A DNA stretch of 17,278 nt from Thermodesulfovibrionales bacterium (GCA_963715195.1 CAVQRT010000015.1:1-17278); one strand, 5' to 3'; positions 7,841 to 17,278 are shown, numbered from the stretch's first letter. The notes: generated from the letters alone by a model not told the origin. A program made the numbers and translations.

Positions 7841-7938
7841 GGGAGTGTATAGGGCTCTGGTGTCCCTCCCGGACTTCAAATCCGGTGTTGCCTGTTACAA
7901 ACGGGCAGGGTGGGTTCGATTCCCACACGCTCCCGCCA
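7841..7938 (+). tRNA. selC: tRNA-Sec (anticodon UCA)
   Basis: 8-bp acceptor stem GGGAGTGT/ACGCTCCC, discriminator G, CCA; anticodon arm CCGGA-CTTCAAA-TCCGG; long variable arm TGCCTGT/ACGGGCA; T-arm GTGGG-TTCGATT-CCCAC; 98 nt. Confidence 0.96.
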
Positions 7939-12275: not shown

Positions 12276-12650
12276 ATGAAGATAAATTCAAAGAGATTTG
12301 CAGAAGAATGGTTTGAATCATGGAACTCACATGATCTGGATAGAATATTATCTCACTATAGTGATAATGTCGAAATCACTACACCAATGATTAAAGTTGC
12401 CACGGGAATAGAAACCGGAACACTAAAAGGAAAAAGAAATATTAGAGAATACTGGGAAACGGCATTGAAGAAAGTGCCAGATTTGCATTTTGAATTGAAA
12501 GAAATAACAGAAGGAGTGGAATCTGTAGCTATTTATTATCAATCGGTTTTTGGAAAAATGGCGATTGAAGTAATGTTTTTTGATGATGCAGGCAAAATAA
12601 ATAAGGTAATAGCGCATTACAGTAGAGTAGAGAACTGGCGTAGTAGCTAA
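12276..12650 (+). CDS. SnoaL-like / NTF2 family protein; last codons replaced by antisense intron sequence
   Basis: FAEEWFESWNSHDLDRILSHYSDNV, GK..IREYW, PDLHFE, VIAHY. Codons from 12622 onward derive from the intron. Confidence 0.9.
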   Translation: MKINSKRFAEEWFESWNSHDLDRILSHYSDNVEITTPMIKVATGIETGTLKGKRNIREYWETALKKVPDLHFELKEITEGVESVAIYYQSVFGKMAIEVMFFDDAGKINKVIAHYSRVENWRSS

Positions 12651-12678
12651 AGGCTCTATCTCCAGTTCCCCCTCATCA

Positions 12679-14620
12679 GTAGGGTCGAGGACTGGCGCGT
12701 ATCAGAGGAATTCTGCACGTCTCCAGCCCCCGCCTCGTCAAACATAGCATGCAGATTTCCCGCACTATGCTTTCCTTTCGGCTTCACTACAAGGGTTATG
12801 GTGCCTATTTGCCGGCAGTGCTTTTGAGTCCGTAGTACCTCACCTTATAATCAGCATAAAGCCTGAGGTGACAGTAAAACCAGTCTCTACTCCACCTGTC
12901 CCAGCCAAAGCCCTTACGTTTTCGAGATCTCATGAGATGACGTCTTATTTTCTTCTCGACCCAATCCTTTACATAACTAAAACATCGACTGGAATGCCCT
13001 ATCCGAAAGTAATTAACCCAGCCTCGGAGTTTCGGGTTGATCAACTCAATCACGCGTTCAACAGGTTGAGACATGAATCGCTGGAAAATCTCTTTAAGAT
13101 TTCTCAAGAGATTTGTCCGCGCCTTCATCCTCGGGGTGATGCGTAGCCCCCATTTCCCACTGAGTGTTATAATCCTCCGTATGTCGAACCCCACAAAGCT
13201 AAAGCTCTCCCCTTTCGTCAGGTCTACGACTTGGGTCTTTTCTTCGTTAACTTTTACATCCAGTCTCGCCAACTCTTCAAGAAGTCGTCGATATGCCCTC
13301 TGTAGTAACCAGTTCCAACGTCGATACCCGTCTACCAGTATCACAAGGTCATCTGCAAAGCGAGCGTACTCGATATAGGTAAAGCCAGATTTACCCGTCA
13401 CCGCCTTCGCCTTCTCAAGCATCCTATCCACCTCATTTAGGTAGATATTTGACAAGAGGGGTGAGACTACCCCACCCTGTGGAACTCCACGCTTACCGCT
13501 AGCTTTTAGTATGAGTCGCAGCAGCCACATCACTTTGTAATCGTCGACCCTTCTGGCTATCTTTTTCAACAATAGGTCATGACGCACCGTATCAAAATAC
13601 GCCTTGAGGTCAACATCGATGACTTGTGTCTTATTGTGAACGATCGCATCTGCGATTCGGTGCACCGCCTGATGCGCCGTTCGTTTCGGGCGATACCCGT
13701 ATGAACCCTCCTGAAAGTCAGCTTCAAAGATCGGTTCAAGAACAAGTTTAAGCGCTCCCTGCACTATTCGATCACGGATAGTCGGTATCCCAAGAATACG
13801 TAATTTCCCATTTCCTTTGGGTATTTCTTTCCGTCGATTTCGCATAGGCAGGTATCTCCCTGAAAGTAGTTCTCTCTGTATACTCAGAAGAAACTCTTCG
13901 CGACCGCTTCCCTCAATGGCTTCAAAGGTGACACCATCAGTTCCAGGTGCCCCATTATTCTCTTTGGCCATGACGTAGGCAGCTTGGAGCACCTCCATCT
14001 TGCATACATGAACGTACAATCCCCAAAACCGATGCTGCTTGTCGGCTTTCGCCTTGACGTATATTCTCCTCCTCAGGTCCTGCAGACTAACGGATGTCTT
14101 TGTCATCTCATCCCTGCCTTCCATTGTTGTTAGAGAAATGCCAAAAGTAGGGCCTCTTCGCTCCACAAGCATTACCCTGCTTCATCGCTACTACTGGCCC
14201 ATCCGTCACCCTTCCGCCTTCAGTCCACTTCCCAGTGTCTCCGGTTATAGGACTTACCTTGCTCCGGCGATTTCTCGCCGGGGCAGTTAGGGCTTCTCCA
14301 GTTGCTCGGTGTGTCCTTGCTGCCATGCCGCCGTTATCACCCCACTGAAGTGGAATAACCGTTTCAATCAGTTTTCGGTTATCCATGCTGCCTTCGCCCT
14401 ACGGTTGAAAGCTCGGCCTTCAGGGCTCCGTATTTTCGGGGCCACCTCCACGTTCACTTTCGTTGCGGCCTGGCAACTCGTTATCATCCTTCAGATGACA
14501 GTGTCGATGGGCTTCAGGATATCGGTTTCCCTTTACCCTGCCATCCTAACTACATGGCTTCTGACTGTTGCCATGGCAGGACTGTCTCCTGCTGAACACA
14601 CCAGCCTTTGCTGGACACAC
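12679..14620 (-). mobile_element. Inner group II intron (IIB-type RNA, 1942 nt) encoding RT/maturase, inserted in DV of the outer intron
   Basis: 5' GTGTG at 14620; epsilon' bulge AAGC (14511-14514); EBS1 AACCGT (14401-14406); DV AAGCATAGTGCGGGAAATCTGCATGCTATGTTT (12772-12740); DVI ending CTCG-A-CCCTAC with branch A at 12685. Confidence 0.93.
12805..14106 (-). CDS. ltrA: Group II intron reverse transcriptase/maturase, no endonuclease domain
   Basis: NNGAPGTDG, RILGIPTIRDRIVQ, SYGYRP, DVDLKAYFD, GVPQGGVVSPLLSNIYL, YARFADD, domain X LRGWVNYF. Ends soon after domain X. Start ATG 14106 (MTKTS) gives 433 aa. Confidence 0.95.
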   Translation of the reverse strand: MTKTSVSLQDLRRRIYVKAKADKQHRFWGLYVHVCKMEVLQAAYVMAKENNGAPGTDGVTFEAIEGSGREEFLLSIQRELLSGRYLPMRNRRKEIPKGNGKLRILGIPTIRDRIVQGALKLVLEPIFEADFQEGSYGYRPKRTAHQAVHRIADAIVHNKTQVIDVDLKAYFDTVRHDLLLKKIARRVDDYKVMWLLRLILKASGKRGVPQGGVVSPLLSNIYLNEVDRMLEKAKAVTGKSGFTYIEYARFADDLVILVDGYRRWNWLLQRAYRRLLEELARLDVKVNEEKTQVVDLTKGESFSFVGFDIRRIITLSGKWGLRITPRMKARTNLLRNLKEIFQRFMSQPVERVIELINPKLRGWVNYFRIGHSSRCFSYVKDWVEKKIRRHLMRSRKRKGFGWDRWSRDWFYCHLRLYADYKVRYYGLKSTAGK

Positions 14621-14657
14621 AACCGTACGTTCGGTTTTCCCGAATACGGCTTTCCAA

Positions 14658-14766
14658 TCATCTTCTTCCAGAGGCGTTCACAGTTTCCTTCTGCTTGGCA
14701 CTCTGGTATAGCCTTCTCCGAAGATTCCCGATTTAGAGGAGTTAATAGTCTGCCTAAGGCTGACAA
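14658..14766 (-). pseudogene. Internally deleted IEP remnant in domain IV of the outer intron
   Basis: SD GAAAGGAG, then LLTPL / frameshift / IGNLRRRLYQSAKQ (compare inner IEP LQDLRRRIYVKAK), joined directly to TVNASGRR* just before DV. Confidence 0.7.
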
Positions 14767-15386
14767 TCTCCTTTCCTTCTCTCCTTCGGAGACATGATGA
14801 AGGTATTGCCCCTTCCCTCTCCCAAAGTTATGTTGTCTTTGAGATACCAGCGGTAATATGAGCAACTCCGACTCCCTTATAGACCCGGTGAAACTTCGGC
14901 TTTCCTTATATCCACCAGTTGCTCCCGTTATCATCGAGACATCGATAAGGGTCTCCCGCGTTCATTCTCGTATGGCTTCCCCTGCGTGTCGCCCCTGTTA
15001 CCCCGGAAGTCCATCTATCGGTTACGGTAGTTTTCGTTAGGATAGATGCTTCGGTCTTCCCCAATGTAGGAACAGGGTCGACAACTTCATTCTGTTTTGT
15101 CGAGGCTACATCCAGAGTTCGCTCTCGCTACAACCCGCAGGTTCGCTCAGCTCCCTCTCGGAGCCTTTGTCAAGAAACTCAGTGCTTCAGGTTACCCTTT
15201 ACACCTCCTTCAAGCTACGTGGGTGAACTACCCAATTCCCACGACCGGACTTTAACCGGCAAGTCATACGTTTTACACGGCATGCCCTACGAACAAACAT
15301 CTACGGCATAATATGAGCAGTGAGAATTACTGATTGTAATATGCAAAAGATACTGATATTTTAGTATTTTTTAACAATTTCTTATC

Positions 15387-15488: not shown

Positions 15489-15549
15489 AGAAGTGGACCC
15501 CATTGGTTGGACAGTTTTGGGGCTGATTTAAGGTGGAAACCACCATCCA

Positions 15550-16417
15550 TCATGCCGCCAGTTTTACCGGATAACCTGCCCTTGGCAGATTCCAGTATGC
15601 CTCATGTGGTGTCCTGTCGTCCAGAGAAGAATGAGGACGCTCCTCATTGTAACGTCTGATCCATTTATCGATACCTTTCCGTGCCTCACTGCCTGTCTCA
15701 AAAGCATGTAAATAAATACACTCATATTTCAGTGACCGCCATAGCCGCTCAATCATAATGTTATCCATCCACCGACCTTTGCTGTCCATAGAAATCTTCA
15801 CCTCGGCGTCCTTGAGCACCTGTGTAAAAGAAAAGCTCGTGAATTGGCTTCCTTGATCCGTGTTGAAGATGACAGGCTTACCGTATTTGGCCAAAGCCTC
15901 CTTGAGGGCTTCGACACAGAAATCAGCATCAAGGGTATTGCTGAGCCTCCAACTGAGAACCTTCCGACTGTGCCAGTCCATGACCGCCACCAGATACAGA
16001 AAGCCCTTTCTCATCGGTATGTACGTCACGTCGGAGCACCAGACCTGGTTGGGCTCCTGTATGTCTATCCCTCTGAAGCAAATAAGGATAGATCTTATGC
16101 TCAGGATGCGGTTTGCTTGTATTGGGTTTCTGATAGATCGCCATGAGTCCCATCTTCTGCATCAGCCGACGCACCCGCTTCCGGTTAACCCAGTACCCCT
16201 GACGCCGCAGATATCGGGCCATCTGTCGGGCTCCGTAATACGGCGCTTCCAGAAACTGCTCGTCTATTAGCCTCATGAGCTTCAGATTCAACTCGCTCTC
16301 CCCGGTCGCCTCGTAATACCACGAGGAGCGGCTAATCTGAAGTAATTCGCACTGCTTTGTAATACTGAGCCCCGGATCCCCCGGTTCCACCAGCTCTTTC
16401 CTCCGCTCGCGGCTCAT
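15550..16417 (-). pseudogene. IS3 transposase OrfB (DDE), broken by one extra base near 16075-16078
   Basis: KIYPYLL continues in another frame as RGIDIQEPNQVWCSDVTYIPM; DDE motifs WCSD, NTDQGSQF, IERLWRSLKYE. Confidence 0.88.
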
Positions 16418-16701
16418 CGACCGAAGGCTTTCGCTAAAAAATCCCGTTCCACCGTCAATTGCCCGATCTTAGCGTGCAACTCCTTGACCTGTACCTCGTG
16501 AGCTACGTCATCCCGACTTGGCTTCCCTGCAAATACGTCACTAAGCCCTTTCAGTGCCTGTTTCTTCCAGTCGCTTACCTGATTGGGGTGAATATTGAAC
16601 CGCGCTGCGATCTCTGCAATCGTTGATTCTTCCTTCAACGCCTCGCGTGCTACTTTTGCCTTGAATTCCGCCGAATACCTGTTCCTTTTCGTCTTGCTCA
16701 T
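16414..16701 (-). CDS. IS3 transposase OrfA (HTH)
   Basis: RYSAEFKAKVA..AL, IAARFNIHPNQVSDWKKQ, ELHAKIGQLTVERDFL; SD AAGGAGG; slippery T TTT TTA at 16441-16435. Confidence 0.93.
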   Translation of the reverse strand: MSKTKRNRYSAEFKAKVAREALKEESTIAEIAARFNIHPNQVSDWKKQALKGLSDVFAGKPSRDDVAHEVQVKELHAKIGQLTVERDFLAKAFGR

Positions 16702-16773
16702 CCCGGTGTGACCTCCTTACGCTTGTCGTATTTTACACCTTATACGACTGTCCGATTTCAGGGGTCCACCTCT

Positions 16774-17278
16774 ATCTTTGCGATATTGACTTTTTGCATA
16801 AATGTTTAGAGTGCCTGAAAAGGGTATCCCCAGATTGCTAAAAATTATTTTCAATTCCTCAGAAAGATTTTCGTATTTACCGACATAATCAACAATGATA
16901 TGTTTATGATTAAGATTGTCAGTATATAAAGGATAGTTAAAAGGAATTAGATATCCCTTACGTATCCAATCCTCAAAGGTAAGTTTATTTCCAAAAAATA
17001 AATAATTTACAGAGTGATACTGTGATATCATTTTATCCCAGGGATTCCTTTCAAAACAAAACTTGAAATAATCATTCCAAATTTTTTTATTAACCCTATT
17101 TTTTACAATAAAGGCAGGCATATGATTGTAGAATCCTGCATAATTTCTTGGTATATGTCCAACTTCTGCAGGTCCGACTGGCGTAAAAATATCATCCTCA
17201 GCACATAAGTCTGAAAGATACACTTCAATACTTGTACCTGCCGTTTTAAATGTCTTTACGAAAATAAATTTATACTTG
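16774..17278 (-). pseudogene. Sulfotransferase family 2 protein, N-terminal part (start beyond window), interrupted by IS3
   Basis: Frame open from the window edge: KYKFIFVKTFKTAGTSIE (5'-PSB motif), YFKFCFERNPWDKMIS (3'-PB motif), VDYVGKYENL. Confidence 0.88.

What the first reader, a model, noticed from the sequence alone, without database searches (positions are those of the whole stretch)
12740..12772. Inner intron's own domain V is recoded so it escapes its own EBS1 (self-immunity)
Seen: the inner DV lower stem is AGCATAG/CTATGTT instead of the outer AGCCGTA/TACGGTT, with compensatory changes keeping pairing and the AGC triad. The IBS1-equivalent becomes TATGTT (12746-12741), only 3 of 6 pairs with EBS1 AACCGT; the CCGTAT match is also lost. 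Inference: self/non-self discrimination that lets a DV-targeting intron avoid inserting into itself.
Basis: partly seen in the sequence, partly recalled or inferred. Interest (0 to 1): 0.75.

Follow-up and report, generated by a model that had tools for sequence, protein, structure and literature searches.

The report
Core-targeting intron with altered own core
This mobile self-splicing RNA belongs to a widespread family that inserts right behind the catalytic hairpin of other such RNAs; the family's own hairpin is rewritten at exactly the letters its guide reads, which probably keeps it from jumping into itself, although some relatives have re-aimed their guide at the rewritten hairpin.

Summary
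Confirmed. The inner intron (14620-12679, minus strand; endonuclease-less, FADD) sits at the DV/DVI junction of an outer intron. EBS1 pairs 6/6 with the outer DV and 3/6 with its own. The 'CCGTAT' point is wrong: EBS2 reads -13..-9 and fits the own DV no worse.

This is a clade trait. Of 185 junctions, 77 lie in another intron's DV. DV pair 5 (IBS1 -5) is G-C in 30 of 30 outside introns but only 10 of 75 clade members, with 26 changes against 0. Own DVs are unoccupied in 31 of 31 copies in six genomes. Six clade-type DVs are invaded; all five readable guides are re-matched.

Limits: one near-self nest exists (L036), 21 of 22 non-DV targeters keep variant DVs, there is no lineage-level fine-tuning, and the order of origin is unresolved. 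Nothing was tested at the bench.

Best reading: inherited, leaky self-avoidance plus counter-retargeting among kin. This scan noted DV/DVI homing with self-invasion before on other DNA (e1-6850256). Nine literature searches found neither DV homing nor the DV signature.

The parts
12622..15285 (-). Outer group II intron without an intact ORF (only a short RT-like remnant), interrupted at its DV/DVI junction
   Evidence: Rfam RF02003 at 15262-15123. 85-88% identity to three other copies in the genome. The 5' end is inferred from where those copies start to align and from EBS1/exon fit.
15065..15070 (-). Probable EBS1 of the outer intron
   Evidence: Hairpin loop whose letters track the upstream flank at 5 of 6 in three of the four copies; the C25 copy fits poorly. 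Read by eye (inference).
14688..14732 (-). Remnant of the start of a deleted RT ORF in the outer intron (approximate)
   Evidence: Read by eye. The C25 relative still has a frameshifted RT at this point. Inference.
14621..14651 (-). Outer DV, canonical lower stem; the target of the inner intron
14621..14626 (-). IBS1 (3' strand of outer DV), 6/6 with EBS1
14629..14633 (-). IBS2 (-13..-9), 3/5 with EBS2
   Evidence: Register from covariation across the clade
12679..14620 (-). Inner group II intron, 1942 nt, GTGTG...AC
   Evidence: A 99.3% copy sits at the same DV position of another outer intron on C25. The empty-site joint 12678/14621 occurs in contigs of 2 of the 4 runs laid, both DNA, with short sides of 27 and 22 nt.
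14429..14433 (-). EBS2 of the inner intron
14401..14406 (-). EBS1 of the inner intron (AACCGT)
   Evidence: Covariation with 5' exons; coordinates
14337..14337 (-). Probable EBS3 (A). It pairs with the T that follows both the target DV and the own DV, so it does not discriminate
   Evidence: Best-covarying DI column: 80% Watson-Crick in 61 introns
12805..14106 (-). Intron-encoded RT/maturase, 433 aa, FADD, no endonuclease domain
   Evidence: TIGR04416 above cut-off; Pfam RVT_1 and GIIM only; motif
12741..12771 (-). Inner DV with variant lower stem (the finding)
12741..12746 (-). Own IBS1-equivalent TATGTT, 3/6 with EBS1; the three distal pairs mismatch
12679..12740 (-). Linker, DVI and 3' end of the inner intron
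   Evidence: Fold
12622..12678 (-). Linker, DVI and 3' end of the outer intron, resuming after the inner intron

Best explanation
The inner intron belongs to a widespread endonuclease-less clade (class F group, g2-like) whose likely ancestral guide, EBS1 AACCG(U/G), reads the 3' strand of the DV lower stem of other group II introns. It inserts at the DV/DVI junction, a landing pad that almost every group II intron carries. The conserved AGC-side pairs 1-3 (IBS1 -1 to -3) are hardly free to change. The clade rewrote pairs 4-7 on both strands, keeping the hairpin but removing the distal EBS1 pairs to its own site. The result is inherited self-avoidance: the window's intron did not invent it, it carries a derived form. 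The protection is only sequence mismatch, so it is leaky. Some kin have re-matched EBS1 to the clade's variant DVs and invade relatives or near-identical copies, which may drive the continued turnover of these pairs. Shown from sequence: target site, guide registers, 3/6 self-pairing, the clade-restricted DV variability, and the re-matched guides. Inferred: that 3/6 blocks homing, that selection against self-insertion caused the change, and that the turnover is an arms race.
For: Junctions: 77 of 185 distinct junctions are in a DV; 71 are canonical-type and 6 clade-type. All 5 clade-type cases with a readable guide are re-matched at 5-6/6, and 0 of 58 DV junctions with the common guide types lie in a clade-type DV. 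Self-pairing: of 50 introns with DV-type guides, 43 pair 4/6 or less with their own DV, while 44 of 48 pair 5/6 or more with their real site. Mean EBS1 score is 3.12 against own DV and 4.77 against outgroup DVs (44 introns). Tree of 105 representatives: pair 5 is G-C in 30 of 30 outside (0 changes, tree length 22.1) and in 10 of 75 inside (26 changes, length 14.1); pair 4 has 16 vs 3 changes; positions 8-10 change at similar rates in and out. The clade has 100/100 support, and its sister group (52-54% identity, no DV targets seen) has canonical DVs. A DV scan with the lower stem left open found 46 DVs in 27 of 401 genomes; the 5 without G at position 5 are all clade members. Own DVs are unoccupied in 17 of 17 copies on one complete chromosome, where 15 of 18 insertions are in foreign DVs, in 12 of 12 copies in four more genomes and in 2 of 2 here. 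Seventeen insertions with DV-type guides lie in non-DV sequence, so primary sequence rather than the hairpin is read. In the class F intron Pe.th.I2, mutating the three distal IBS1 bases abolished in vitro splicing (PMC3753933 section 11).
Against: L036 has a guide matching its own DV 6/6 (one wobble) and sits in the identical DV of a 92%-identical copy; it is 1 of 79 introns screened. L056 keeps the common guide with a near-canonical own DV (5/6), and 7 of 50 pair 5/6 or more with their own DV. 21 of 22 clade members with non-DV guides keep variant DVs. Own DVs fit their guides no worse than DVs shuffled within the clade (3.12 vs 3.18, p about 0.29). Canonical CG at -5/-4 is not significantly rarer beside the common guide (1 of 31 vs 3 of 31, p 0.61). 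Some insertions sit at 4/6 sites (3 of 4 in G1144), so 4/6 may not protect. There is one origin, the basal order is unresolved, and a long-branch member with a non-DV guide (L076) has the variant DV. Self-nests can be lost by recombination or collapsed in assemblies. Identical DV variants recur on distant branches, so part of the 26 changes may be DV swapping rather than independent substitutions. In Cl.be.I2 the same distal mutations only reduced activity and fidelity.
Confidence: 0.6

Rival explanations
1. Neutral or structural clade quirk. The DV lower stem lost its constraint once, for example through a changed contact with DI or the protein, and then drifted. Poor self-pairing is a by-product, or a pre-adaptation that later allowed DV targeting.
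For: Single origin with unresolved order; L076 has a variant DV with a non-DV guide. 21 of 22 non-DV targeters keep variants. No within-clade fine-tuning.
Against: The extra change falls on the guide-read pairs (4, 5, and also 1, and position 11 at the IBS2 edge) while positions 8-10 are not faster. The presumed kappa region of DI looked alike in clade and sister group where my pattern could read it; it was unread in about half of the rows. Returns to CG at -5/-4 occur mostly where the guide mismatches elsewhere (3 of 4 with known guides; not significant).
Confidence: 0.22
2. RNA-level protection. The change matters mainly to stop EBS1 from binding, cleaving or reverse-splicing into DV of its own or sibling intron RNA, not DNA.
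For: It predicts the same sequence pattern. EBS1-IBS1 alone sets in vitro splice-site choice in class E/F introns (PMC3753933).
Against: In a folding model of the ORF-less intron, EBS1 did not pair with DV whether the own or the outer DV was present (probability about 0; DV stem above 0.98). This test is weak, because the model does not leave EBS1 free. Re-matched guides exist in apparently intact introns (L036).
Confidence: 0.1
3. Survivor or assembly bias. Self-insertion happens, but nested direct repeats are deleted or collapsed, so empty own DVs say nothing about immunity.
For: In L036 the host's DVI is missing after the inner intron, as expected from collapse of tandem DVI copies (inference). 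Earlier scan notes describe self-nested arrays and DVI scars elsewhere (not checked).
Against: It does not explain the DV variability. Nests in clade-type DVs are recovered when the guide matches (5 of 5). The complete G305 chromosome keeps other nested arrays yet has 0 of 17 own DVs occupied.
Confidence: 0.08

Closest known systems
Nested group II intron arrays of Methanosarcina acetivorans (Dai & Zimmerly 2003; seen only as summarised in passages of PMC4424553 and PMC2882425)
   Same: Site-specific homing into other group II introns gives a perpetual landing site and nested arrays.
   Different: The passages seen name no DV target (the cited title says homing into related intron ORFs) and no self-avoidance. 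Here the target is the catalytic DV/DVI junction and the clade's own DV diverges at the read positions.
TeI3/TeI4 twintrons of Thermosynechococcus elongatus (Mohr et al. 2010, PMC2882425, passages)
   Same: An inner intron inserts at a conserved site of related introns, with near-identical inner copies in diverged outer ones, as for the two copies here.
   Different: That site is in DIV between two ATGs and the inner introns lack an ORF. Here the inner intron is autonomous and reads DV of distant introns (host RTs 24-50% identical).
Class F group, g2 (B.th.I3 and others; Toro & Martinez-Abarca 2013, PMC3552965, parts 2-3 of 4 of the text and Table S2)
   Same: Endonuclease-less RT-X, FADD motif, similar size; groups with B.th.I3 and not with Ni.ha.I1.
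   Different: B.th.I3 is only 50% identical, lies in a transposase gene and has a near-canonical DV. The parts read give no target preference or DV variant.
Specialised-target lineages such as IIC introns at terminators or attC sites (passages of PMC4424553, PMC8643678, PMC4748821)
   Same: A lineage specialised on a ubiquitous, low-cost landing site.
   Different: IIC recognises a DNA stem-loop and lacks EBS2. This clade has EBS1, EBS2 and a probable EBS3, also inserts where there is no DV hairpin, and carries the target motif in its own body.
cox1i1149g2 of Lycopodiaceae mitochondria, an intron inserted into itself (Zumkeller et al. 2020, PMC7049729, passages)
   Same: Self-insertion of a group II intron, as in L036.
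   Different: Organellar, with no DV target or avoidance described in the passages seen.

Membership tests
Mobile bacterial group II intron | GUGYG...AY ends, DI-DVI with AGC-triad DV, RT/maturase ORF upstream of DV | tested here: met
   empty-site joint
Mobile bacterial group II intron | EBS1-IBS1, EBS2-IBS2 and EBS3-IBS3 pairings | tested here: met
   Covariation across relatives. In this copy EBS2 pairs only 3/5.
Mobile bacterial group II intron | Splicing and retrohoming activity | not testable with these tools
   Indirect only: two copies 99.3% identical in different host introns. No spliced RNA joint was seen in the contigs of the 2 RNA runs laid.
Class F group (g2) of Toro & Martinez-Abarca 2013 | RT-X without endonuclease domain | tested here: met
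   Pfam RVT_1 and GIIM only
Class F group (g2) of Toro & Martinez-Abarca 2013 | FADD instead of YADD | tested here: met
   RFADD in the window's protein and B.th.I3; YADD in the two g3 proteins
Class F group (g2) of Toro & Martinez-Abarca 2013 | Clusters with named g2 members | tested here: inconclusive
   Groups with B.th.I3 at 100/100 against Ni.ha.I1, but only 1 of the 5 named g2 introns was in hand. So.us.I2 (1943 nt, basal F) was not compared.
Group IIF ribozyme (Nagy et al. 2013) | 5-nt DV loop | tested here: met
   Five-base loop in both DVs; feature taken from PMC3753933
Group IIF ribozyme (Nagy et al. 2013) | alpha' at the tip of a DId3 stem-loop | not tested
   Not examined
Group IIC | No EBS2; insertion after a DNA stem-loop | tested here: not met
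   EBS2 covaries at -13..-9; 17 insertions with DV-type guides lack a DV hairpin
Twintron (serial splicing) | Inner intron inside an outer intron whose structure is restored on excision | tested here: met
   Removing 14620-12679 rejoins outer DV to DVI; relatives with the empty junction exist. The splicing order itself was not tested.
   L036, 1 of 79, with a re-matched guide. None among carriers of the common guide types.
   Outside the clade, G at position 5 is kept in 30 of 30 and 41 of 41. Inside, variants persist in 21 of 22 non-DV targeters.

The most novel reading that the evidence does not exclude
A clade of group II introns parasitises the catalytic core of its own kind, and this has put the normally fixed DV lower stem under a guide-versus-target arms race. 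First came self/non-self discrimination by compensatory recoding. Then kin re-aimed EBS1 at the recoded stems (five re-matched guides), followed by further escape, including a one-base bulge in DV that shifts IBS2 out of register (EBS2 0/5 in 5 of 5 Rhodothermales variants; 0 of 17 own DVs occupied on one chromosome) and possible DV swapping between introns.
Probability: 0.4. Interest if true: 0.8.

Novelty: new variant of a known kind. Interest (0 to 1): 0.65.

Why it matters
DV is the one part of group II introns treated as reliably conserved (PMC4028801, passage). Here a whole clade varies it at the very pairs its guide reads. If self-avoidance is the cause, it is a simple, testable case of self/non-self discrimination in an RNA-guided mobile element, written into a ribozyme active-site helix. 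It also gives a natural library of DV stems that presumably still work. In practice the clade explains many bacterial twintrons with a DV cut off from its DVI. Its DVs can also be missed by standard profiles: RF00029 did not list the inner DV even at E up to 1.

Tried and rejected
CCGTAT as IBS2: rejected, because the register scan puts IBS2 at -13..-9. EBS2 or EBS3 as the discriminator in this copy: rejected, both fit the own site. Window-specific recoding: rejected, the clade's commonest DV already gives 3/6. Within-clade fine-tuning: not found for EBS1 (p about 0.29); EBS1+EBS2 gave p about 0.02, with non-independent rows and probably driven by the bulged DVs. Cis mispairing of EBS1 with DV: not predicted, weak test. 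Three viral scans added 0, 4 distant and 2 loci. Phylum and family protein searches around G301, G302 and G303 each hit 3 genomes of 198-251 scored. No close relative of the second DV-inserting intron L373 was found (best 43%). Read mapping showed no own-DV-to-5'-end joint and no spliced joint in 4 runs; these were contigs of relatives with partial cover, so this is no evidence. The kappa' contact in DV could not be pinned to base pairs from the passages read. One row (L161_378) was a parsing artefact and was dropped, giving 1 of 79 rather than 2 of 80. The first FastTree tree gave the clade only 0.79 support; two searches gave 93.6 and 100/100. My first placing of the outer 5' end at 15298 was corrected to 15285. 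Simon et al. 2008 is not held.

Full report
ANATOMY. The minus strand carries a twintron. An outer intron without an intact ORF (15285-12622) is cut exactly between its DV (14651-14621) and DVI by a 1942-nt inner intron (14620-12679). The inner intron encodes a 433-aa RT/maturase with FADD and no endonuclease domain. The genome holds a second inner copy (99.3%) at the same DV position of a different outer intron, and two further outer-type introns with unoccupied canonical DVs. Contigs of 2 DNA runs among the 4 runs laid show the empty junction, with short sides.

OBSERVATION. The inner DV lower stem is AGCATAG/CTATGTT against AGCCGTA/TACGGTT, and both fold. Numbering the A of AGC as 1, pair n of the stem gives exon position -n at a DV/DVI junction. 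Pairs 4-7 differ on both strands. EBS1 (14406-14401) is fixed by covariation: 89 distinct guide/exon pairs average 4.98 Watson-Crick pairs against 2.15 shuffled. It pairs 6/6 with the target and 3/6 with the own site, the three distal pairs being lost. EBS2 reads -13..-9 (72% vs 27% in 60 non-DV exons) and here pairs 3/5 with the target and 4/5 with the own DV. The probable EBS3 fits both. Discrimination therefore rests on IBS1 -4 to -6.

THE CLADE. Of 185 distinct 5' junctions, 77 are DV/DVI junctions of other introns; in the target-blind metagenome set it is 39 of 112. Host RTs are 24-50% identical to the window's protein. Many members have other guides and other targets, and 17 junctions with DV-type guides are in non-DV sequence, mostly with good pairing, so the guide reads sequence and not the hairpin. 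The clade has 100/100 support in a 49-protein tree. Both main halves hold members with guide AACCG(T/G) and a DV ending TGCGTT, which suggests both were ancestral; the base is unresolved. The sister group (52-54%) and B.th.I3 have canonical or near-canonical DVs, and no DV target was seen for them.

DV VARIABILITY. On a tree of 105 representatives (outside DVs occupied by a clade intron were left out, to avoid selecting for canonical ones), pair 5 is G-C in 30 of 30 outside with no change, and in 10 of 75 inside with 26 parsimony changes. Pair 4 has 3 vs 16 changes, pair 1 has 2 vs 7 and position 11 has 2 vs 9. Pairs 6 and 7 have 9 vs 7 and 5 vs 8. Positions 8-10 are alike (tree lengths 22.1 outside, 14.1 inside). 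Pairing is kept throughout (19 DVs chosen by me). A scan of 401 genomes with the lower stem left open found 46 unoccupied DVs of this geometry; the 5 without G at position 5 are all clade members. Recurrence of whole variants on distant branches suggests some DV swapping, so the count of 26 overstates independent substitutions.

DOES THE VARIANT PROTECT? Of 50 introns with DV-type guides, 43 pair 4/6 or less with their own DV (30 pair 3/6 or less), while 44 of 48 pair 5/6 or more with their real site. None of 58 DV junctions with the common guide types is in a clade-type DV. The 6 clade-type DVs that are invaded have re-matched guides in all 5 readable cases. Own DVs are empty in 17 of 17 copies on the complete G305 chromosome, where 15 of 18 insertions are in foreign DVs, in 12 of 12 copies in four further genomes and in 2 of 2 here. 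In a class F intron, mutating the three distal IBS1 bases abolished in vitro splicing; in a class E intron it only reduced it (PMC3753933).

AGAINST. L036 is nested in the identical DV of a 92%-identical copy and matches its own DV 6/6; it is 1 of 79 after one artefact row was dropped. L161 is a 90%-identical sibling aimed at a clade DV. L056 keeps the common guide with a 5/6 own DV. Four bulged-DV variants reach 5-6/6 with wobbles, though their EBS2 falls to 0/5. Of 22 clade members with non-DV guides, 21 keep variant DVs. Own DVs fit no worse than shuffled clade DVs. Some insertions sit at 4/6 sites. Kin are not independent, the origin is single, and self-nests may be lost or collapsed.

MECHANISM. 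Most likely the clade homes by ordinary EBS-IBS pairing to the DV 3' strand. For endonuclease-less introns priming comes from the replication fork (PMC4424553, passage). Excision of the inner intron restores the host's DV-DVI (inference from the sequence). The own DV was rewritten at the free pairs near the clade's origin and inherited; the window's form is a derived one that adds no further escape from its own guide. Counter-retargeting by kin is shown in sequence; an arms race is inferred. Confidence is about 0.85 that the own site is a poor target and about 0.6 that this is why the stem changed.

WHAT IS KNOWN. Homing of group II introns into other group II introns is known (Methanosarcina arrays, seen only as summarised; T. 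elongatus twintrons, passages; a self-invading plant mitochondrial intron, passages). Nine searches of the held library listed no paper on homing at the DV/DVI junction or on self-avoidance by DV change; I judged this from listings and the passages below. Seen: passages of PMC4424553, PMC4028801, PMC8643678, PMC12584367, PMC2882425, PMC7049729, PMC3245105, PMC3669008, PMC3575829 and PMC4748821; passages and section 11 of PMC3753933; parts 2-3 of 4 and Table S2 of PMC3552965. Not seen: Simon et al. 2008 (not held), Simon 2009, Michel 2007, Dai & Zimmerly 2003, the Zimmerly database pages, and the supplements of the other papers; any of these may mention the habit. Earlier notes of this scan describe DV/DVI homing with self-invasion in another genome and a failed self-immunity claim for a YADD-homing intron. 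I did not check those genomes.

VERDICT. A real feature and a new variant of a known kind. Interest 0.65.

Noticed in passing
L055:5334-5365, L061 and L066:5334-5365, G305 (17 copies); L081:5863-5894: Rhodothermales clade members, and an ORF-deleted inner intron in L081, carry one extra base in the 3' strand of the DV lower stem. In the Rhodothermales variants this shifts the IBS2 register to 0/5.
   Followed up: partly
G305, loci L306, L313, L315, L317, L322: A resident intron family whose canonical-DV copies are invaded also has five copies with a clade-type DV, none occupied. Possible host escape or DV conversion; too few to test.
   Followed up: partly
L373:1304-1500 (G1023:C66): An unrelated intron (RT 36% identical, YCDD) appears inserted inside the DV of another intron, near the loop, and its own DV has G at position 4. 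Its 5' end is missing and no close relatives were found.
   Followed up: partly
L028:1875 and L096 (minus strand, about 1660): Clade members inserted directly after the 3' end of another group II intron rather than after DV; L028 has a guide matching that end at 5/6.
   Followed up: no
L027, L031, L033, L149, L188: A sub-lineage with guide TTCCGT targets DVs ending ...ACGGAA; two of its members have returned to CG at -5/-4 in their own DV.
   Followed up: partly
G000 C15, C16 (two copies) and C25: The outer introns form one family in this genome: three without an intact ORF and one with a frameshifted RT. Their 5' ends look unusual (GCATG or GTATG).
   Followed up: partly
window 15489-16773: IS3-family element with terminal inverted repeats and a transposase in several frames, at the 3' end of an ORF (16717-17277) with no NCBIfam hit.
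   Followed up: no
window 7841-7934: Selenocysteine tRNA (RF01852).
   Followed up: no
G242:C6 267334-277904: Several copies of a 42%-identical class F-like intron lie within about 11 kb; the arrangement was not resolved.
   Followed up: no
window 12741-12771: Rfam RF00029 did not list the inner DV even at E up to 1, while the outer DV scored weakly.
   Followed up: yes
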